Assembly: GCA_963722105.1 (NCBI GenBank)
Contig: CAVRKQ010000008.1
Coordinates: 7,433-71,432, forward strand
Length of the DNA stretch: 64,000 bases
Reading direction: 5' to 3'
Source of the DNA: an uncultured Chloroflexia bacterium
GTDB taxonomy: Bacteria > Chloroflexota > Limnocylindria > Limnocylindrales > CSP1-4
Shown here: positions 1 to 53,676 of the stretch, in pieces
Position numbering within the stretch: the stretch's first letter is position 1
How the letters are laid out: every line of letters starts with the position of its first letter
Position numbers and translations under genes: made by a program
The notes under the pieces: model-generated
Databases searched by the model: none
What the model was told of the DNA's origin: nothing
Seen by the model: only the letters and a program-made list of their open reading frames with translations

Positions 1-699
1 TCCGGCCCGACGCGGGTCGCCGGCTGGAACGCCGCGCGCACCGCCGAGGCCTGGGCCGAGCTGATGCGCCGCCTCGGCTACGACCGCTACGGGGCGCACG
101 GCAACGACGCCGGCGCCATCGTCGTCGCCGATCCTCGGCGAGCTCGACCGCGACCACGTCATCGGCACCCACGTCACCCAGATCTTCTCGTTCCCGACGG
201 GCGCGCCGGGCGAGTTCGACGGGCTTACCCAGGCGGAGTTCGGCTACCTGCAGTTCGGCCAGGCGTTCGTCGAGCACGCGATCCACGACCGGTCGCAGTC
301 GAACCAGCCGCAGACGATGGCCCACGGCGTTGGCCGATTCGCCGGCGGGGCAGGTGGCCTGGATCGGCCAGCTCCTCGGCGACGCCGTCCCGATCGACGA
401 CATCCTGACCATCGCCTCGCTGTTCTGGTTCACCAACACCGCGGCCTCCTCGGCCCGGTTCTACTTCGAGAACCGCGCCTGGTTCGCGACCCACGCGGGC
501 GAGCGCCAGGGCGAGGTGACGACCATCCCGATCGGCCTCGCCTCGTTCGCCTACGACTTCAAGCCCGATCCGCAAGTTCGCCGAGCGCGACCACTCGAAC
601 ATCGTCCACTGGAACAACTACGACCGCGGCGGCCACTGGGCCGCGCACGACGCCCCCGACCTGTTGCTCGGCGACATTCGGGAGTTCTTCCGCAAGGTC
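1..699 (+). pseudogene. epoxide hydrolase-like alpha/beta hydrolase, 3' portion (continues left of window); frame changes three times as assembled
   Basis: Four pieces join into one microsomal-type epoxide hydrolase C-terminal half. They are LMRRLGYDRYGAHGNDAGAIV (frame of 64), ILGELDRDHVIGTHVTQIFSFP (from 131), ADSPAGQVAWIGQLLGDAVPIDDILT..SARFYFENR (frame of 330) and IRKFAERDHSNIVHWNNYDRGGHWAAHDAPDLLLGDIREFFRKV (frame of 664). No stop codon follows FFRKV. Confidence 0.6.
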
Positions 700-733
700 A
701 TTTGCGAGGGGCGCTCGGCAGGTACCTCCGCCG

Positions 734-1901
734 CTATCCGACCTTTTGGAACTCGAGCACTGTCTCGGTGCGCATGCGGCGGCCGAGGTGAGATGGACCT
801 GTCGGGGGCGGCAGATATCTGCGCCGATCTGGCAGGGTATGCTCCCGTGCAGCCATCAGCTCGAGGCCAGCGTGCCTTGCCGCCACGGCGACAGTTCTCA
901 GCGTTGTCGACAAGTCTTCCGTCCAGATAGGAGTTGCCCACGACCATAACGGCGCGCCCTCCAAAACGGAGAACCCGTCTTACTTCACCCGTGACCGCAA
1001 GGACATCATTCGCGTAGCGGTGTACAAGGCGGCGGTTCTCGTCGGGATACCTCTGCGGGAAGGCTCGATTGCGCAACGTGCGCCACGTACGCCGTGGCGT
1101 CGAGGCCGCGTTCCGTGCCCATTGCCTGAGGCTGTCGCTCCGAAGTTCACCAAGACTGTAGCCAAGCCACACGAGCGAGAGTCGGTGGCCGCGAAGATAG
1201 TCGATCGCGTTCAGGTACGGTGGTGACGTAAGAACGAGGTCCACGGAGTCGGCGGATATCGGAAGGCTGCGCGTGTCACCGAAGCTGAACCGCTTAAGGT
1301 TGGCGCGAGTGCTTCGTTCGAGGCCAGAAAGAAGGACAACTAGCCGCCTTACCGATCGATCGAGCGCCGCGAAGACATCGTATTCCCCTGGCTCATACCA
1401 GCGATGTGGGCGCGAATGTGCAGCGTCTCGGGCGAGCGAGGCCCCGCGGTCCTTGGTGACGATGATCCGGCTCAATCCAAGTCGAACTACGTCAGCCTCG
1501 GGGCCATGGCGAAGGACTAGGCTCCGCGCATCCCGCTAATGGAGTTGCTGCTTGGTCGCGAACCAGAAGTCCACTAACGCTCGTAGGGCTCGGGATCAGA
1601 GTCGATCCACGGAACCTTGACGTCAGGGCCGTTCTGTCGACAGTCTTCCAGGATGGCCGCAAGGTCCTTAAGCACAACATCGGCGTCGACTCTTGATAGC
1701 CAAACCCGCGACATCAGGATGGCCAATGGGTCTAGTTAATTTGAACGCCGCGTGCTTCAGGTCTGTGGCAACCCTCAACGCCGTGCCAGATCCGCACATC
1801 GGATCCAACACCACAGAACCTGCAGAAAGGCCTCGGCACGCGCGCAGCGCAATCTCGGGTGCCATCCTCGCTGGAAATGGATGGATCGGACGGAGATTCA
1901 C
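734..1901 (-). pseudogene. N6/N4-type DNA methyltransferase, disrupted (in-frame TAG plus at least 3 frame changes)
   Basis: Motifs are IHPFPARMAPEIA and DPMCGSGT (AdoMet motif I), LDPLAILMSRVW, FWFATKQQL, LSRIIVTKDRGASLARDAAHSRPH and LTSPPYLNAIDY (motif IV). The C-terminus LPDRRRYLPPP..ETVLEFQKV lies in another frame (ORF 734-964). A GTG start at 1901 has GGAAGG 5 nt upstream. An in-frame TAG sits at 1537-1539. Confidence 0.75.
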
Positions 1902-4570
1902 TTTGCCTTCCGTGCTGCGGCTCGGCACGGTTGCCGATGCGGTCGTGGCGCCGCGGCCAAGTTCAACATCGACACCGTGGCGAAGATGCTTCGAGGAAGG
2001 CCAGAAAAGCTGAGACACGACGTGGTCTCGAATTCGGTCAGGACTTGCGCTTAGGAACACGTTTTCGACGTTAACGGCAACCAAAGTCGGCGCAATGACA
2101 CGAAGGCCCGTCATAACGTTTCGAACATCGCCGCGTGTGGGCGTCACAGATCCACCGGTTGCTGTCTTGATGCGGTCCGCGATAACCGAGACGGTCACGG
2201 CGTTCGGCCCTTGATACCCAATCTCGTCGAGCACCTTGAGAACGAGTGCGAGTGACACCCGCGGCTTCCCTGATTCCTTCGCCACGAACTCCTCGACCCA
2301 TCTATCAGCTTATCTGGGTCGTGAAGTGCCCCAATCGCCTGAAGCGCTCGCAAGTCGAGGGGCCCTGTCGCAGCTGCGAGCATTAGCAGTTTGGCCAGAG
2401 CCTGGGCACGCATAGGGACAACCTTGTCTTCTTGCGCCTGCTCTCCAAGTGCACCGGTCTCATAGTCCGGAGCAACAGCGAGCGTGAACGCTGCGCCGTA
2501 TTTCGTCCGGTGACGGCGAAGGGCCGCCGTATTGACGTCCTTTGCCTTTACGCGCTCTCGACCTGTCGACTTGGCCTTGTACGTGAACGTATAGCGAAGG
2601 CATATCTGACTCCCCGGGAGTCAGGGGCGCGATAGCTACCCCTTCGGGCTCGCCTTGTCGGCCCAAGCGACGCACGTCGAGTCCTAGGTACTCCAAGGTG
2701 TCGCCGACGAGTAACTCCAAACCCTTCGCGTGCTCCACCGCGGCAAGAAGCATCTCCCGCTATCTGAGCGGCAGTCCGCCGGTTCATGCGGGAAATGATC
2801 CGCTGCAGTTGGTCGCGGTACGCGACAACGTCGTCGACCTGAGTCGAGTCAACCCCCGCATCAATGAGGAACGCACTCCCAAGCAAGTCCACGAGGGCAG
2901 CGTCGCGAAGCAGCAACTTCTCTTCCTGGCTCGAACTGTGCTCCCGCGCAAAGGGATGGACAAGTTGACAACGACGGCGCGACGCCCGATGTCGAAAAAT
3001 TCCAGCCAGGGGTGTGTCGGGCGAGCCATCCTCCAGAATCACTTCCGCGACGGCCTCCTCCGGCCCGGAAGCCGTCCCAGGTCGCGGCTGTTGACCCGGC
3101 GTCATCGACTCGGGATGCAAACGCAGGAAGGCCACCTGCCGACCTCAGGCCGTCGCGGATCACGCGTTCCAGCGGTTGAAGCGGCACGCTGCTCCACGTC
3201 CTGGAAAATGAGCTGCCGGCCTCCTTCCAAGCCGCTTCTACCGCTGCGTCGTGCGCAACGCGCGCCTTGTTGAAGATGGCGAAGAAACGCTCGGAACACG
3301 CACCAGCCGGTTCCTTCGGTGAAGGTCTCTCGGTTGACCGCTAGAAAGCGATCGAGGCCATCAGCCCGGACGCTCGCTTTGAACTTGGACCAAGCGGAAT
3401 GGCTCAAGTTCTGCAGACCGAAATACTGATCGGCTGGCTGCACCACCCGACCGAGATGTTCACTTCAAATCCATTCGACGGAAGCAAGTCGTCGCTCTTA
3501 CCGCCGGTTATGCGATCCTTGGTAAAGCCGCACGGTGCCAGTCACGCGGCCGGGTACGCCGTCAATCGTCACGTGGGGAAATGGATCGTTCGACGCGACG
3601 ACCTTGGCCACGAGGTCATCGCTTACCTCGACCGTTTCGATCAGGGCTGGACCAATCTGCCATTCGCGATCAACGGGCACTTCGAGTTTGGTCGACCCGA
3701 GGGTCTCGCCATTGAAAGAGATCGTCATCGACGGGCCGAGCGGGAGCGCGCTGCGCAGCATCCGACGAATTTGCCCTATCTGCATTGCGCGACCAGCGGG
3801 CTTGAGCGTGGTCAGCAGCGCGAGTGTCCAGGTCCCGGGTGGATCAGGAGGCATCGCATCTGGAACTCCACGGGGTCCTCATACTCTGGGGCCTCTGGTC
3901 GCGGCACTCCTCGATTGATGAGCTCCCAAGGCATCGTCGCCACCGTCGATCTTCTTCAGGAGCGCCTCGATCTCTTCAAGCGCCGCTTCCCGGACCTCGA
4001 GAGAGATCGGTGAGATGGCAAGGTTGCCCGCAGGCCCCGCCCTCTCGATCCTGCGGTAGTCCATCGAGATGGCTCTTGTGACCCCATCTGCGGCCCGACA
4101 CACGTAGGTAAAGCTTGCTCGCCAATAGGTATGTTGCGGCTCGCCTAGACCAAACTTCCCAATCTGCGGCCGTGAATAGGTGCTTCCGTCTGTCCGTTTG
4201 GTAGAGACAGCTACGCGCCAAAGGTCCCTGAAGCCTTCAATCTGATTGAGCCGCCGTCGTCGAGAATCCAGACGGCCGCGTACTCCGCACCGAGATTTGG
4301 CGACAGCCCCACGTACACGACCTTCGCTCCCGCATCCCACGAATTCGCCACCAGTTCCTCGAACGCCTTGTTGGGCGAGGAGTACAGGTGCTCGCTGAAG
4401 CGTTCAAGGAACTGAGGTCCGATCGACACCTCGACAGTGCCGACTGGAGCGCCGGCCGCCGCGAGCGAAGCAGAAATCCCCGCCGGCGGGCCGCTTGGCG
4501 TGGCGCCCACGCTCTTCATCTCCATCGTGCGTTGCGGCTGCGTTGGCCTTCGCTGCCGGTTGTCCGTCAA
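1898..4570 (-). pseudogene. MORC-like GHKL (HATPase_c_3-type) ATPase with C-terminal PD-(D/E)xK-like region, multiply frameshifted; 3' limit uncertain
   Basis: The N-terminus reads IGPQFLERFSEHLYSSPNKAFEELVANSWDAGA, then ILDDGG, EGFRDLWRVAVSTKR and GKFGLG/AATYLLASKL/TYVCRAADG (Bergerat-fold motifs). The distal part LELLVGDTLEYLGLDV..GEPEGVAIAP..YTFTYKAKS resembles an Mrr-type nuclease core. Pieces are scattered over all three minus frames (ORFs 4211-4570, 3879-4340, 3976-4221, 3498-3854, 3102-3446, 2548-3135, 2460-2753, 2195-2413 and the upper part of 1668-2285). Confidence 0.5.
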
Positions 4571-4654
4571 TTGATTCCCCCCTATACGGTCATGACGAAT
4601 TTGTACGACAGCTCACTCAATAACCCAACCGATGCCACCCGGCTTTGCTGATCC

Positions 4655-6097
4655 CTACTCGTCCGAGTTGTCGCATAGGTGGCTTCCGCAACCCACCCTT
4701 AGCATGCTTAGCCAAGCGCAGGCGTGTATGAGGATCGCAGACTCATCGCGCGTCACGTCATCCATGGGTCCGTGGCCGATTTGATTCCGCAAGTTCAAGC
4801 CCAGCGGCTCAGCGAGCAAATTGACAAGGTACCGGCGCCAAGACTCATCCAACTCGCCCACGAGGTCGGCCAACAGTTCGTTGAGGTGCGCACTCCTCCG
4901 GGTCGATCGCCAGATGGCTCACGGACAATCAGCACGCCCGCCGAGCGCGCCAAAGCGCGAATGACTCTGCTCGAAGGGTGGGGGTGCCAGCAAGTGAGCT
5001 TGCCGAGCTCAAGTCTCCGTGCGAGTGCAGTTCAATGGCCCTCGCAAACCGGCGCGCCGCTGAGCGATCGACAAGTTCGCTCTCGAAACGCCTAAAGGGC
5101 GGGAGCGTCGGGAGGCCCGTACCGAGTAAATGCCTGGGTGAGCGCCTCCGCGGCAAGGTGGGCGAACCAGCGAATCGACCTGAGCCTCCTGCTCGATGAT
5201 TTCGACCGCTTGGTGTTCCTCCTGGCCGGCGATATGGCGAAGCCGCGTGTTTTCGGGCCCCAGCACCGTCCTCTGGAAAAGGAATGGAAGCGGGAACTCC
5301 ACCATAAGTTCCGCGATCAAACTTTTCGTTCTCATCAACAAGGCCTGATGGAGAGCCGAAGCTGCGAGGGCGAGGCGCTCGAGAAACTGTTCGAAGTCGT
5401 CGTCGCCAACGACCAGGCCGAGGGCCGCGTTAACACCATCTTGGTTGACATACTCCACCGCATAACTCAGGTCCTTTAAGTTCAGGTCCGTGTGTCGGAC
5501 GTTCCTGAAGGGCTCGACGTAGCGAGTCGATTTCAGGGCGAAGACCATTGACCTGGGCCACCCCGAGCGCATCTTCTTGTAGGGCAAAGAGCTTCTGCGG
5601 CCCTCCCTGCCCGTCTCCCCAGCGCACCCACCGGTCGATCTGCCTACGCCGGGCCTCGGCGGCGCCGGTTGCGCAACCCGACCGTCGCGCGATCAAGTCA
5701 GCGACAGCGTCAAGGACCGGCGGTTCTGCTTCGTAGCGTGCTTCAAGCCTCGCCAAGAACTGATCGATCCCGACTGGTTGCAGGGGCGGTGGGAGACGGG
5801 TAACTGAGGCCAAAAGCCGGAGCTGTATCTGGCTCGTGCCGCCCGCTCACAAGCGATTCGTCGGCTTGAGCCATTGCACGTTGGCGGGCATTCTCGACAC
5901 GAGGCACGTCATTGATCGTCTTCGCCAGCTGTACGGCACGGCACGTCGCGAGCACGGCTGTCATCGACGCTTGTCCTCGCATCCTTCGACAAATCGAGAT
6001 AGGCATCGATTGCGCTTCGACAGGCGCCCACATCGTTCGTAAACGTCCACAGCAGGTCTCCGGACCGTGCCAGTGCTAGCGGCGTGCGGGCCTCCAT
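4655..6097 (-). pseudogene. DUF4209-like protein, multiply frameshifted; 5' limit uncertain
   Basis: The C-terminal piece LVNLLAEPLGLNLRNQIGHGPMDDVTRDESAILIHACAWL carries the NLRN..HG signature I associate with DUF4209. Upstream protein-like pieces occur in different minus frames (ORFs 5009-5587, 5430-5813, 5743-6033, 5909-6097). Confidence 0.4.
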
Positions 6098-6381
6098 GCC
6101 ATCTCGCCATGAGCTTAGCGCCTTGTCGGACTCGGCTCCCTCCGTTCGCCCGTTCGTCTCGAATGCCCAGCAGCGCAGGCTTAGACCGCGCCTTGCGTCG
6201 TCGGATCGATCGTCTCCGAGTACACGCAGTCAAAGGCCGTCGCGTGCCATTGATGCAGCCGATCCGGCCCCGACCAACTCCCACAGCAACCGGGCAACCT
6301 TGGTCTAGCCTGCCGAATTCCAGAGGCAGCCTTGTTGATGACGTTAACGACCCCGGTCACTCGCCATTCCAATCAGAAAGT

Positions 6382-6413
6382 GAGCGGGCCCAGTGGAGGA
6401 ACTGGGCCCGCTC
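6382..6413 (-). terminator. intrinsic terminator-like hairpin downstream of nrdJ
   Basis: A perfect 12-bp stem GAGCGGGCCCAG/CTGGGCCCGCTC encloses an 8-nt loop. On the minus strand it is followed by ACTTTCTGATT. It lies 27 nt after the nrdJ stop at 6440. Confidence 0.6.
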
Positions 6414-6439
6414 AGGTCCGGTCGTATGCGCCGTTGGGC

Positions 6440-9400
6440 TCAGCTGCAGCCGGAGGTCGACCCACAGTTGAGGCACTTGTAGCAAGAGCCGTTGCGAACC
6501 ATGATCGAGCCGCAATCCATGCACGACGGGGCGTCGGCCTGGGTGGCGAAGGCGACCTTGGTGCCGCCGAGATTCAGGGTGATTCCGCCGCCGTTGGCGG
6601 GCTTGTTCGCGGACGAACCATTGGCATGCCCGTTCGAGTGGCCATTGGAATGCCCATTCGAAGCCGCGCCGACGGTGGCCAGGTAGCCGAGCTCGACCTT
6701 CTCGACCCTTGGAGCATCGTCGATCGACGACTGCATCCCGAGTGGGGCTGCACTCGCCGCGGGGGCGGTGGCGATGGCCTTCGGCTGGTCGTCCGATGAA
6801 CCCGCCGAGGCGGGCGGATCGGCGGCCGGAGGGGTCGGGTCCGAGAGCGTATCGGCAGCGGAGCCGCTTGCGGCGGAGCTGGCGGGCGAAGCCGTAGCGA
6901 GCGGAGCCGACGCCGAGACGGCGAGACGAGCCGGGGCGTCCTCGATCGAGCTGCGATCGATCAACCCGAGGCCGGACTTCTCGTCATCGCGTCAGGAACC
7001 GCGATCCCATCCACCGGAAGATGTAGTCCACCAGGGACTTGGCGATCGGGATCTCGGAGTTGCCGGTGAAGCCGGAGGGCTCGAACCGGACGTGCGCGAA
7101 CTTGTTGACCAGGTCGCGGAGCGGGACGCCGTACTGGAGCGCGACGGACACGGTCGTGGCGAACGAGTCCATCAGGCCGGAGACGGTCGACCCTTCCTTG
7201 GCCATCTTCAGGAAGATCTCGCCGGGCTGGCCGTCCGGGTAGAGACCGACCGTGATGTAGCCCTCGTGGCCCGCGATGTCGAACTTGTGCGTGACCGCGG
7301 TCCGCTCGGCCGGGAGCCGGCGGCGGTGCGGCTTGCCCGCCTCGACCTGCGACGCGCTCAGCTGATCCGTGAGCTGCTTGATGAGGGCCTGCTGTTCGGC
7401 CGAGCCCTCGTCCTTCTTCTTGCCGGTCGAGAGCGGCTGCGAGCGCTTGCTGTTGTCGCGGTAGATCGCGATCGCCTTGAGGCCCTGCTTCCAGCCCTCG
7501 AGGTAGACCTGCTCGATCTCCTCGGCCGTCGCGGCCTCGGGCATGTTCACGGTCTTGCTGATCGCGCCCGAGATGAACGGCTGGACCGCACCCATCATCC
7601 GGATGTGGCCCATGTAGTGGATGCGACCGCTCGCCGTTGACCGGCTTGAACGCGCAGTCGAAGACGGGGAGGTGCTCCGGCTTGAGGGCCGGCGCGCCCT
7701 CGATCGTCTCGTTGTCGTTGACGTAGTCGAGGATGGCCTGCGTCTCGTCCGCGGTGTAGCCGAGCTTCTTGAGCCCGACCGGCACCGTCTGGTTGACGAT
7801 CTTCAGGAAGCCCTCGCCGACGAGCTTCTTGTACTTGATGAGGGCGATGTCGGGCTCGATGCCGGTGGTATCGCAATCCATCATGAACGCGATCGTCCCG
7901 GTGGGGGCGAGCACGGTCACCTGGGCGTTGCGGTAGCCGTTCTCCTTGCCGAGCTCGAGGGCCTCGTCGAAGACGACCTTCGCCGCGTCGAGGATCTCCT
8001 GGGGCACGCCGGCCTTCGTCAGGGCGTAGGCGGCGGTCGCGGTGCTTGCCGATGACGCGGAGGAAGGGAGCGCGATTCACGTCGTACTCGAGGAACGGCC
8101 CGCCGTGATCTCGAGCGATCACCGCGGACTGCCGGTAGGCCTCGCCGTGCATGATCGCGGTGAGACCGGCGGCGAAGTTGCGACCCTCAGGCGAGTCGTA
8201 CGCGAGGCCGCGTGACATCAGCAGGGCGCCGAGGTTCGCGTAGCCCAGGCCGAGCGGCCGGAACTTGTGGCTGTTCTCCTCGATCCGCGGCGTCGGGTAG
8301 GACGCGTTGTCGACGAGGATCTCCTGGGCGGTCAGCGTGACCCGCGCCGCGTAGCGGTAGTCCTCGACGTCGAACTCGCCGTCCTCACCGACGAACTTCA
8401 GGAGGTTGAGGCTCGCCAGGTTGCAGGCGGTGTCGTTGAGGAACATGTACTCGGAGCACGGGTTGGACGCGTAGATCCGATCCGTGTTCGCGGACGTGTG
8501 CCAGTCGTTGATGGTCGAGTCGTACTGGATCCCGGGGTCGCCGCAGATCCAGGCCGCGTCGGCCATGCGCCGGAAGATGTCCCGCGCGCTGAGGGTGTCG
8601 ACCGGCTCGCCCGTGGTGACCGACTTCGTCGTCCACTGGCCGTCGTTCTCGACCGCCCGCATGAACTCGTCCGTGACCCGGACCGAGTGGTTGGCGTTCT
8701 GGAAGTAGACGCTCCCGTAGGCCTCGCCCGTGAAGCTCGGGTCGTAGCCCTGCTCGATCAGCGCCCAGGCCTTCTTCTCCTCGAGCTGCTTCGAGTCGAT
8801 GAACTCGAGCACGTCGGGGTGGTCCGCGTCGAGGATCACCATCTTGGCCGCGCGGCGGGTCTTGCCGCCCGACTTGATGACGCCGGCGAACGCGTCGTAG
8901 CCCTTCATGAAGCTGACCGGGCCGCTTGCAATCCCGCCGCCGGACATGCGCTCCTTCGAGCTCCGGATGGGGGAGAGGTTGCTGCCGGCGCCCGAGCCGA
9001 ACTTGAAGAGCATGGCCTCGGTCTTCGCGAGGTCCATGATCGAGCCCATGTTGTCCTGGACGCAGTTGATGAAGCACGCGGAGCACTGCGGCTTCGGCTC
9101 GATCCCGACGTTGAACCAGACCGGCGAGTTGAACGCCATCTTCTGGTGGACGAGGAGGTGGGTCAGCTCGGCCTGGAAGGCCTTGCGGTCCTCGTCGGTC
9201 GCGAAGTAGCGCTGGGTCTCGGCCCACGAGGCGATCGTGAGGACGACCCGGTCGATGAGCTGCTTGACGCTGTTCTCGCGCTCCGGGGTCCCGACGTGCC
9301 CGCGGAAGTACTTGCTCACGACGACGTTGGTCGCGAGCTGGCTCCAGGCCTTGGGGACCTCGACGTCCTTCTGCTCGAAGACGGTCTTGCCGGTCTCGGA

Positions 9401-9664
9401 GGAGATGGCGGCCGTGCGGAGCTCCCACTCGATCTCGTCGTAGGGGTGGATGTCCGCGCGCGTGAAGCGGCGCTCCCACTTGAGGCCCTTGACCTTGTTG
9501 CCGAAGCCGTCCGTGCCGTCGAAGCTCGCGCCCCACTGGCCGGCCAGCTGCCGGCCTCGGGCCTTGCCGGCGCGGCTCCTGGCTGCCGAGCCCTTCGCAG
9601 TCGGCGCGGCTCCCTTGTCGGTGTTCGCCATGACCGGGACCGGTGCCGCGGTTGCTCGGGCCAT
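6440..9664 (-). pseudogene. nrdJ: class II (adenosylcobalamin-dependent) ribonucleotide reductase NrdJ, three frame changes as assembled (possibly sequencing artefacts)
   Basis: Motifs include NPCSEYMFLNDTACNLASLNL and TGIEPDIALIKYKKL. Further motifs are [28 protein letters not shown] and the C-terminal Zn-ribbon CMDCGSIMVRNGSCYKCLNCGSTSGCS. Four ORF-track pieces (7595-9970, 6961-8007, 6984-7613, 6440-6964) abut at about 8031-8040, 7612-7620 and 6985. The ATG at 9664 is preceded by GGAGAGGA; an alternative ATG lies at 9760. Confidence 0.9.
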
Positions 9665-53599: not shown

Positions 53600-53676
53600 T
53601 GGGGTGGCCTACGGGGGTCGAACCCGTAACCTTCGGATCCACAATCCGATGCTCTGCCGGTTGAGCTAAGGCCACC
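53600..53676 (-). tRNA. tRNA-His (anticodon GTG)
   Basis: The minus-strand sequence is GGTGGCCTTAGCTCAACCGGCAGAGCATCGGATTGTGGATCCGAAGGTTACGGGTTCGACCCCCGTAGGCCACCCCA. It folds as a cloverleaf with the extra G(-1) and anticodon loop TTGTGGA. The T-loop is TTCGACC and the CCA end is encoded. Confidence 0.95.

What the first reader, a model, noticed from the sequence alone, without database searches (positions are those of the whole stretch)
700..6380. Lower-GC island carrying a decayed methyltransferase + MORC-like GHKL ATPase/nuclease + DUF4209-like trio
Between the 3' end of an epoxide hydrolase gene and the nrdJ terminator lies about 5.7 kb whose base composition is visibly less GC-rich than its flanks (by eye, not computed). 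All coding signal is on the minus strand and resolves into three genes:
- A DUF4209-like protein with an NLRN..HG motif.
- A long GHKL ATPase of the MORC/HATPase_c_3 type. Its distal part looks like an Mrr-type PD-(D/E)xK core (GEPEGV ... YTFTYKAKS, where the expected E-x-K reads K-A-K) followed by a wHTH-like segment.
- An N6/N4 DNA methyltransferase with DPMCGSGT and SPPY motifs. Its GTG start may overlap a stop of the upstream gene (GTGA).

MORC-type GHKL ATPases linked to methyltransferases and nucleases have been proposed as restriction-modification-like defence modules in comparative-genomic work on prokaryotic MORC/paraMORC proteins. I do not recognise the association with a DUF4209 gene as a named system. 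Every gene is broken many times, including two compensating shifts within about 30 nt in the ATPase, so this copy is almost certainly dead. Repaired in silico, it would define the architecture of a possibly uncharacterised defence system. No integrase, tRNA or flanking direct repeat was seen.
Basis: partly seen in the sequence, partly recalled or inferred. Interest (0 to 1): 0.7.

Follow-up and report, generated by a model that had tools for sequence, protein, structure and literature searches.

The report
Broken restriction-modification pair plus unrelated HEPN gene
A low-GC stretch next to the nrdJ gene holds a two-gene restriction-modification-like module (a MORC-like ATPase fused to a nuclease, plus its DNA methylase) and a separately inserted defence-candidate gene; the three are not one system, and the many frame breaks may be largely sequencing error rather than decay.

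Summary
Bases 700-6380 are 61% GC against 71% elsewhere and carry three minus-strand genes, all frame-broken.

- The GHKL ATPase-nuclease and the methyltransferase form a widespread two-gene module. They are adjacent in 69 of 80 genomes, and their stop and start overlap as GTGA.
- The two nearest relatives carry this pair at the same site, just 3' of nrdJ, with no DUF4209 gene.
- No DUF4209 relative lies within 10 kb of any of the 80 related ATPase loci. That gene belongs to the stand-alone PADLOC candidate family PDC-S39 (DUF7380 plus a HEPN domain) and was inserted separately.
- Structure models support a MORC/Hsp90-like ATPase, a restriction-endonuclease-fold domain and a winged helix.

"Almost certainly dead" is not established. 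I count 33 frameshifts in the island. However, nrdJ carries three single-base insertions while keeping 455 of 456 family-invariant residues, and about eight other ordinary genes are also frameshifted. The ATPase keeps 128 of 134 invariant residues. This pattern fits indel-rich consensus sequence.

Indel-independent damage is limited to two lesions: the nuclease catalytic D/E reads K (unique among 167 relatives), and the methylase has one in-frame TAG.

Overall this is a new variant of a known kind, of moderate interest.

The parts
4655..6237 (-). DUF7380 + DUF4209 (HEPN, motif RNQIGH) gene of the PADLOC PDC-S39 candidate family, frame-broken. Its start may lie as far upstream as about 6348.
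   Evidence: Frameshift-aware alignment gives 67% identity to P0121 over 512 aa, with 11 frameshifts and one ambiguous stop. Intact relatives hit PDC-S39 at E 1e-19 to 1e-27 and Pfam DUF7380 + DUF4209. DUF4209 is assigned to the HEPN superfamily in PMC3710099.
1898..4570 (-). Fusion protein of about 870-890 aa, frame-broken. It combines a GHKL (MORC/Hsp90-like) ATPase, a middle domain, a PD-(D/E)xK nuclease and a winged helix. GHKL motifs are intact (EELVANSWDAG, LDDGG, IGKFGLG). The nuclease motif reads PEG...K-A-K instead of D/E-A-K. The 5' limit is uncertain: alignment to P0001 begins at 4504, and 4570 is the first TTG of the open frame.
   Evidence: 68% identity to P0001, with 15 frameshifts and no stops. 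Pfam HATPase_c_3 scores 53 bits on P0001. Fold matches are MORC2/3/4, SMCHD1 and Hsp90 for the N-terminal part, and HindIII, AspBHI, FokI, MspJI and Cdc6/ORC winged helix for the C-terminal part. Position 657 is D/E in 165 of 165 ungapped relatives (167 aligned). 128 of 134 family-invariant residues are kept.
734..1901 (-). DNA methyltransferase, frame-broken. Motif I (DPMCGSGT) lies near the N terminus and motif IV (SPPY) about 190 aa later. The GTG start overlaps the ATPase stop as GTGA.
   Evidence: 59% identity to the L001 methylase, with 7 frameshifts, an in-frame TAG at about 1538 replacing a Leu conserved in at least 95% of relatives, and a second ambiguous stop at about 1296. Relatives hit PADLOC MTase_II at E 1e-21 to 1e-24. 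The motifs are invariant in 54 relatives. The GTGA overlap is shown.
6381..6414 (-). nrdJ intrinsic-terminator hairpin (14-bp stem followed by a T-rich tail). It marks the upstream edge of the island.
   Evidence: (I13).
6440..9664 (-). Flanking nrdJ gene (B12-dependent ribonucleotide reductase) with three single-base insertions at about 8037, 7622 and 6988. It serves as an internal control for sequence quality.
   Evidence: 90% identity to P0130. 455 of 456 family-invariant residues are kept. The insertions appear as single-base gaps against L090 and L091 DNA.
1..697 (+). Flanking epoxide-hydrolase-type gene, 3' part, convergent with the methylase. It has three +1 frame changes at about 130, 344 and 562.

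Best explanation
The stretch is a variable spot just downstream of nrdJ that holds two independent defence-type modules.

Module 1 is a two-gene restriction-modification-like pair.
- The first gene encodes a protein of about 870 aa. Its N-terminal GHKL ATPase (MORC/Hsp90-like) is fused to a restriction-endonuclease-fold (PD-(D/E)xK) domain and a winged helix.
- The second gene, translationally coupled to it (GTGA), encodes a DNA methyltransferase with an SPPY catalytic motif.

Inferred mechanism:
- The methylase marks host sites, probably as N4-methylcytosine.
- The ATPase-nuclease dimerises through its GHKL domains on ATP binding, as MORC, MutL and Hsp90 do, and clamps or loops unmodified DNA.
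- This brings two FokI-like cleavage domains together to cut.

Module 2 is a stand-alone DUF7380-HEPN (DUF4209) protein of the PDC-S39 candidate family, presumably an RNase-type effector. It was inserted between nrdJ and the pair in this lineage only.

In the sequence as given, all three genes are interrupted by 33 frameshifts. I think it somewhat more likely than not (about 55%) that most of these are consensus indel errors in a poorly covered, strain-variable region of a long-read or metagenome assembly, rather than biological decay. Independently of the indels, the nuclease active-site acid is replaced by lysine, so restriction by this copy is probably disabled either way.
For: Shown:
- Domains and folds.
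- A methylase relative is adjacent (within 400 nt) in 69 of 80 GTDB loci, and adjacent in seven further fetched ATPase loci (six contigs).
- The GTGA overlap is conserved.
- 432 species representatives across many phyla encode the ATPase.
- No DUF4209 relative lies within 10 kb of any ATPase locus.
- DUF4209 relatives sit alone among integrases, relaxases, toxin-antitoxin genes and HEPN/RES genes.
- The nearest relatives L001/L002 and L092 have the nrdJ 3' end directly upstream of the pair.
- The nrdJ relatives L090 and L091 carry other cargo at this site.

Evidence that the frameshifts are indel errors:
- nrdJ keeps 455 of 456 invariant residues yet has three 1-nt insertions.
- About eight other ordinary genes have frame breaks that are almost all +1.
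- The ATPase deviates at conserved columns no more than real family members do (5 of 117; 42 of 167 members deviate as much or more), despite 15 frameshifts.

Evidence for a disabled nuclease: D657K, where position 657 is D or E in all 165 ungapped relatives.

Inferred, not shown: the ATP-driven clamp and cleavage mechanism, and N4-cytosine specificity. The latter rests on the SPPY motif and the established classification of amino-methyltransferases.
Against: - No member of this pair family has been tested, so restriction activity, ATP dependence and the methylation target are all inferred.
- Frameshift density is about 6 per kb inside the island against about 0.3 per kb outside. It changes at the island borders, which real pseudogenisation also explains.
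- Island indels include many deletion-type events, unlike the +1 bias outside.
- The methylase has an in-frame TAG at a conserved Leu and more deviations at conserved columns than about 95% of relatives.
- The methylase identity is about 14 points lower than expected from the ATPase identity.
- Fold similarity of the nuclease to the modification-dependent enzymes MspJI and AspBHI leaves a Type IV-like reading open.
Confidence: 0.7

Rival explanations
1. The frame breaks are biological. The island is a true relic of a defence locus, pseudogenised long ago in a genome that is losing genes. The nrdJ and other frameshifts are real recent lesions too.
For: - Frameshift density is 20-fold higher in the island than elsewhere and changes at its borders.
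- Frameshifts outside the island cluster within particular genes, for example three in nrdJ, two in the SIS gene and three in the permease.
- The nuclease catalytic residue is lost.
- The methylase has an in-frame TAG and is unusually diverged.
Against: - nrdJ keeps 455 of 456 invariant residues, and the ATPase keeps 128 of 134.
- With usual bacterial indel-to-substitution ratios of about 1:5 to 1:10 (my knowledge of mutation-accumulation studies), 15 indels should come with roughly 9-18 changes at the invariant ATPase residues. Two to six are seen.
- Frameshifts outside the island are almost all 1-nt insertions outside homopolymers, whereas natural bacterial spectra are usually deletion-biased.
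Confidence: 0.45
2. One reading: DUF4209 protein + GHKL ATPase-nuclease + methyltransferase form one three-gene defence system.
For: - The three genes are co-directional and close together in the window.
- Anantharaman et al. 2013 note that the bacterial C6orf70/DUF4209 HEPN family 'occurs in R-M related operons'.
Against: - No co-occurrence within 10 kb in 80 ATPase loci, nor in the seven separately fetched ATPase loci.
- The three closest DUF4209 relatives have unrelated neighbours.
- The nearest relatives of the pair sit at the same nrdJ site without the DUF4209 gene.
Confidence: 0.04
3. The ATPase-nuclease is a self-sufficient, Shedu-like or Type IV (modification-dependent) nuclease. The neighbouring methylase would not be its protective partner.
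For: - GHKL-nuclease fusions work alone in Shedu type I-D (VcSduA, formerly paraMORC3; PMC12137116).
- The nuclease domain resembles those of MspJI and AspBHI.
- 8 of 80 loci show no methylase relative.
Against: - The methylase is adjacent in 69 of 80 loci, mostly directly downstream with overlapping stop and start.
- At least three of the eight loci without a methylase are cut at the contig end.
- No DUF4263/Shedu hit in Pfam or PADLOC at E <= 0.01.
Confidence: 0.1

Closest known systems
MORC/paraMORC GHKL ATPases of predicted restriction-modification operons (Iyer, Abhiman & Aravind 2008, PMC2292703)
   Same: An N-terminal GHKL ATPase with MORC-like fold matches. It is genomically linked to a DNA methylase and a restriction-fold nuclease, and is sporadically distributed across phyla.
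   Different: - Here the nuclease and a winged helix are fused to the ATPase.
- The partner is a single N6/N4-type (SPPY) methylase.
- No helicase is involved.
- I could not test membership in any of the numbered paraMORC families, because no reference sequences were at hand.
Shedu type I-D / VcSduA (GHKL ATPase + DUF4263 nuclease, formerly paraMORC3; PMC12137116)
   Same: A single polypeptide with an N-terminal GHKL ATPase and a C-terminal PD-(D/E)xK nuclease. For VcSduA, both activities are needed for phage defence.
   Different: - No DUF4263 or Shedu model matches.
- This family is about 300 aa longer and has a winged-helix tail.
- It is almost always paired with a methylase, which Shedu is not.
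BbrUII/HgiDII family Type II restriction enzymes (NCBIfam NF050001) and PADLOC REase_II models PDLC03419/03485
   Same: Restriction enzymes with an N-terminal GHKL-type domain, encoded next to a methylase.
   Different: Only the first 120 or so residues match. The score is 46 bits against a family cut-off of 550, so this is not a member.
PADLOC candidate PDC-S39 and the HEPN family C6orf70/ERMARD (DUF4209)
   Same: Relatives of the window's first gene match PDC-S39 over nearly their full length and carry DUF7380 + DUF4209. The HEPN Rx4H motif (RNQIGH) is present in the window copy.
   Different: PDC-S39 is only a candidate with no tested function. The window copy is frame-broken.

Membership tests
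GHKL ATPase superfamily (Pfam HATPase_c_3) | Bergerat-fold ATP-binding domain with motifs I-III (E/N box, DxGxG, GxxGxG) | tested here: met
   P0001 scores 53 bits (cut-off 25) and P0057 scores 52 bits. The window fragment scores 20 bits. The window reads EELVANSWDAG, LDDGG and IGKFGLG.
MORC family proper | GHKL domain followed by an S5-fold transducer domain, plus the MORC-specific sequence motif | tested here: inconclusive
   Foldseek aligns about 430-450 columns to the MORC3 and MORC4 ATPase modules (E 1e-9 to 1e-10, TM by target 0.47-0.49). Hsp90/TRAP1 scores equally well. The MORC-specific motif was not examined.
Shedu / paraMORC3 | DUF4263 (PF14082) nuclease domain | tested here: not met
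   No DUF4263 hit in Pfam and no Shedu model in PADLOC at E <= 0.01 for P0001 or P0057.
PD-(D/E)xK restriction-endonuclease fold | Alpha/beta core with acidic residue(s) and a (D/E)xK triad | tested here: met
   The C-terminal model (pLDDT 81) matches HindIII, AspBHI, FokI and MspJI at E 7e-5 to 1e-3. Across 167 relatives, E/D634, D/E657 and K659 are invariant in kind. The window copy has K at 657.
Mrr-type nuclease (Pfam Mrr_cat) | Match to the Mrr_cat profile | tested here: not met
   No Mrr_cat hit at E <= 0.01 on P0001 or P0057. The only hint is a weak fold match to AF1548 (1y88), which I recall, unverified, as carrying an Mrr-like nuclease domain (E 0.04).
BbrUII/HgiDII restriction enzymes (NF050001) | Whole-protein score above the curated cut-off (550 bits) | tested here: not met
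   45.8 and 43.1 bits, covering the N-terminal 120 residues only.
Restriction-modification system (operational definition) | A nuclease gene conserved next to a DNA methyltransferase gene | tested here: met
   Adjacent in 69 of 80 loci and in seven further ATPase loci. The methylase matches PADLOC MTase_II at E 1e-21 to 1e-24.
Restriction-modification system (operational definition) | Methylation protects host DNA from the cognate nuclease | not testable with these tools
   This needs an experiment.
N6/N4 amino-methyltransferases | AdoMet-binding motif I (FxGxG-like) and catalytic motif IV ((D/N/S)PP(Y/F)) | tested here: met
   DPMxGSG and SPPY are invariant in 54 relatives and present in the window. 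Pfam N6_N4_Mtase scores 37 bits on the L001 methylase.
PADLOC PDC-S39 / Pfam DUF7380 + DUF4209 | Match to the family profiles over most of the length | tested here: met
   P0121, P0123, P0124 and P0127 give E 1e-19 to 1e-27, with P0124 covered at 75-551. Pfam hits to both domains are above cut-off for three of the four proteins; P0127's DUF4209 hit (18.1 bits) is below it. The stitched window fragment gives E 2e-5 for PDC-S39 and 23 bits for DUF4209.
HEPN superfamily | Rx4-6H motif | tested here: met
   The window reads R-N-Q-I-G-H. P0121 and P0123 read RNRLGH and RNRTGH. The family assignment comes from PMC3710099.

The most novel reading that the evidence does not exclude
The GHKL-nuclease/methylase pair may be an untested class of ATP-dependent restriction-modification system. 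In it, a MORC-like ATP-driven dimer clamp licenses a FokI-like cleavage domain. If so, it would be a simple bacterial model for how MORC-type ATPases act on DNA in response to its methylation state.
Probability: 0.35. Interest if true: 0.6.

Novelty: new variant of a known kind. Interest (0 to 1): 0.38.

Why it matters
- The pair family is large. 432 of about 185,000 species representatives carry it, from Actinomycetota and Chloroflexota to Bacteroidota and one archaeon.
- It has no dedicated model in Pfam, NCBIfam or PADLOC beyond its ATPase domain, and I found no paper that tests it.
- If it restricts DNA as inferred, it adds an ATP-dependent, MORC-like route to restriction and offers a tractable system for studying MORC mechanism.
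- For this window specifically, the lesson is cautionary. The three-gene 'system' is a chance neighbourhood in a variable spot, and the apparent decay cannot be separated from poor consensus quality without the reads.

Tried and rejected
- Plain tblastn of intact relatives against the window ran through frame changes at low identity and hid them. I replaced it with my own frameshift-aware dynamic-programming aligner.
- Pfam on raw three-frame translations gave only sub-threshold hits, because the genes are fragmented.
- Looking up an intact window protein to find the source genome returned nothing on record.
- A sequence search of the PDB with the C-terminal profile found nothing meaningful. 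Only the fold search worked.
- Literature searches for 'HATPase_c_3 + methyltransferase + phage', for 'EMARD', and for GHKL + methyltransferase + anti-phage + restriction gave nothing relevant.
- The HEF_HK/paraMORC paper (PMC8011034) describes a different family.
- I considered GC loss through decay as the cause of the low GC and rejected it. Intact relatives show the same dip: 62 vs 70%, 57 vs 69%, and 58 vs 66%.
- An apparent 11-nt duplication near the nuclease motif, considered while reading the sequence, was judged a chance resemblance.
- Flanking direct and inverted repeats are all short, low-identity matches.
Full report

Yes. Bases 700-6380 are 61.2% GC against 71.1% for the rest of the window. 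The 1-kb bins from 1001 to 6000 are the five lowest of all 64. A codon-usage Viterbi trained on intact genes of the window labels 698-6464 as non-coding, which reflects foreign codon usage and/or broken frames. Raw three-frame translations of the minus strand give only weak Pfam hits, to N6_N4_Mtase/UPF0020, HATPase_c_3 and DUF4209.

I stitched the fragments by eye, found intact relatives, and wrote a frameshift-aware protein-to-DNA aligner. It recovers three minus-strand genes:
- A DUF4209-type gene at 6237->4682, 67% identical to P0121 over 512 aa, with 11 frameshifts.
- A GHKL ATPase at 4504->1891, 68% identical to P0001 over 869 aa, with 15 frameshifts and no stops.
- A methyltransferase at 1901->743, 59% identical to the L001 methylase, with 7 frameshifts.

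That overlap is conserved in the relative L001. The pair of compensating shifts about 30 nt apart is at about 4143 and 4109. There is no nearby tRNA, no Rfam match, no integrase and no convincing flanking repeat. The nrdJ terminator hairpin is at 6381-6414.

**2. What are the genes?**

*ATPase.* Relatives are 840-950 aa long and carry only Pfam HATPase_c_3.
- An AlphaFold model of P0001 (mean pLDDT 76) matches the ATPase modules of MORC2/3/4, SMCHD1 and Hsp90/TRAP1 over its first 450 or so residues.
- A separate model of the last 320 residues (pLDDT 81, pTM 0.77) matches HindIII, AspBHI, the FokI cleavage domain and MspJI at E 7e-5 to 1e-3. It continues into a Cdc6/ORC-like winged helix.
- In 167 relatives the nuclease motif is (E/D)634-G ... 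(D/E)657-x-K659 without exception. The window reads K-A-K.

'Mrr-type' is not shown, because no Mrr_cat hit was found.

*Methylase.* Motif I (DPMxGSG) lies at residues 34-40 and SPPY at 228-231, both invariant in 54 relatives. The order I->IV together with the serine suggest an N4-cytosine enzyme. That is an inference from the established amino-methyltransferase classification. PADLOC scores the relatives as MTase_II at E 1e-21 to 1e-24.

*DUF4209 gene.* Intact relatives carry Pfam DUF7380 + DUF4209 and match the PADLOC single-gene candidate PDC-S39, nearly end to end for P0124. DUF4209 is the C6orf70/ERMARD family of the HEPN superfamily (PMC3710099). The window keeps the Rx4H motif (RNQIGH).

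**3. Is the trio a system?**

No.
- Of 80 loci from GTDB species representatives that encode the ATPase, 69 have a relative of the methylase within 400 nt. In 44 of these it is a close-family methylase lying directly downstream on the same strand. A further 3 have a methylase relative elsewhere in the locus.
- None of the 80 has a DUF4209 relative within 10 kb.
- Seven further ATPase loci (six contigs) fetched by exact-protein look-up behave the same way.
- The three closest relatives of the DUF4209 gene sit alone among integrases, a relaxase, toxin-antitoxin genes, HEPN_Toprim_N, RES and a ThiF/ubiquitin-like cluster.
- The two nearest relatives of the window's ATPase are P0001 (L001/L002) and P0002 (L092). 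Both have the 3' end of nrdJ 140-244 nt upstream of the ATPase, with no gene between.
- Closer nrdJ relatives carry quite different genes downstream of nrdJ: four unknown genes in L090, and DNA_alkylation/PadR genes in L091.

The picture is a variable spot 3' of nrdJ. The ATPase-methylase pair has long been resident there in one clade, and a PDC-S39-type gene was inserted there in the window's lineage.

The low GC is a property of the pair wherever it lives in high-GC hosts: 62 vs 70%, 57 vs 69%, and 58 vs 66%. It is not a sign of recent arrival or of decay.

**4. Is this copy dead?**

Frameshifts are not confined to the island.
- nrdJ (9664->6443) is 90% identical to P0130 and keeps 455 of 456 residues that are invariant in 108 relatives. 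Yet it has three single-base insertions, at about 8037, 7622 and 6988.
- Each insertion appears as a one-base gap against the DNA of two relatives, and none lies in a homopolymer run.
- The epoxide hydrolase at 1-697 has three +1 shifts.
- Other affected genes are a SIS-domain gene near 24.4-25.0 kb (two), a peptidase-like gene near 40.9 kb, a histidine kinase near 49.3 kb and an FtsX-type permease near 58.2-58.6 kb (three). Further candidates lie near 30.3, 54 to 55.5 and 57.4-57.8 kb.
- Almost all of these are +1 insertions.

An essential-looking, perfectly conserved gene with three insertions is the signature of consensus indel error, or at best of very recent lesions.

Inside the island the density is about 20-fold higher (about 6 per kb), and deletion-type events are common too. 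But substitution-level decay is nearly absent in the ATPase.
- 128 of 134 family-invariant residues are kept. Four of the six changes lie next to frameshift sites.
- Deviations at columns conserved in at least 90% of relatives number 5 of 117, and 42 of 167 real members deviate as much or more.
- With ordinary bacterial indel-to-substitution ratios (my knowledge: roughly 1:5 to 1:10), 15 real indels should have come with 9-18 changes at the invariant residues.

A strain-variable island covered by few long reads would explain both the density and its borders.

Against a purely technical explanation:
- The D657K change needs one or two substitutions and is unique in the family.
- An in-frame TAG replaces a Leu conserved in at least 95% of methylases.
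- The methylase deviates at conserved columns more than about 95% of relatives.
- The methylase is about 14 identity points more diverged than the ATPase identity predicts, with z near -3 over 52 systems.

My estimate is about 55% mostly artefact and 45% real relic. Either way the nuclease active site is probably dead.

The nrdJ hits come from MAGs labelled Limnocylindrales, Chloroflexota, Binatia and Dormibacteraeota. This fits a metagenome-assembled source.

**5. Mechanism**

Shown:
- The architecture of the proteins.
- The conserved pairing with a methylase.
- Translational coupling through the GTGA overlap.
- Intact GHKL motifs.
- The invariant (D/E)xK motif in relatives.

Inferred:
- The methylase marks self DNA.
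- The ATPase-nuclease dimerises on ATP as MORC, MutL and Hsp90 do, and clamps or loops unmodified DNA recognised through its C-terminal domains.
- This licenses paired FokI-like cleavage.

Iyer et al. proposed DNA looping for MORC and paraMORC proteins of restriction-modification operons (PMC2292703). VcSduA shows experimentally that a GHKL-nuclease fusion needs both activities for defence (PMC12137116). The HEPN protein would act separately, presumably as an RNase effector.

**6. Comparison and novelty**

The pair works like a restriction-modification system and resembles the MORC/paraMORC operons predicted in 2008. It fails the tests for two known families:
- Shedu/paraMORC3, because it has no DUF4263 domain.
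- The BbrUII/HgiDII restriction enzymes, because it scores 46 bits against a cut-off of 550.

No PADLOC, NCBIfam or Pfam model covers the 600 or so residues beyond the ATPase domain, and the literature library holds no paper that tests such a pair. I rate it a new variant of a known kind. The DUF4209 gene is a member of an already listed candidate family. The window's own copy adds little beyond pointing to the family, and its sequence quality is doubtful.

Noticed in passing
window 6443-9664 (nrdJ), 1-697, about 24.4-25.0 kb, 40.9 kb, 49.3 kb, 58.2-58.6 kb; candidates near 30.3, 54-55.5 and 57.4-57.8 kb: Ordinary, well-conserved genes across the window carry single-base frameshifts, almost all +1 insertions outside homopolymers. 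nrdJ has three yet keeps 455 of 456 invariant residues. This suggests an indel-rich consensus, so any 'pseudogene' call in this window needs read-level support.
   Followed up: partly
L090 10423-15583 (downstream of nrdJ in a relative with 91% identical NrdJ): Four consecutive genes (472, 361, 177 and 658 aa) with no Pfam hit occupy the same spot 3' of nrdJ where the window has its island. They may be another uncharacterised cargo of this variable site.
   Followed up: no
L008 1-5050 and 7543-8925: The DUF4209 relative P0123 lies next to a HEPN_Toprim_N gene and near a ThiF + Multi_ubiq + protein-kinase cluster. This looks like a defence-island neighbourhood.
   Followed up: no
window 6450-6990 and nrdJ relatives: The NrdJ C-terminal linker is long, low-complexity and length-variable (Ala/Pro/Ser-rich, with NGHSNGH repeats) before the conserved CxxC...CxxC tail. 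Some relatives also carry LAGLIDADG intein insertions (P0148, P0167, P0172 and others, with Pfam PF14528 and PF14890).
   Followed up: no
L093 162-947 and 7637-8227: In one metagenomic relative the ATPase-methylase pair sits 1.3 kb from a phage-type integrase and near a second (C5) DNA methylase fragment. This hints that the pair can travel on integrative elements.
   Followed up: no
window 53600-53675: tRNA-His (GTG) is the only tRNA and the only Rfam match in the 64-kb window. The surrounding 53.7-55.7 kb shows several short frame changes.
   Followed up: no
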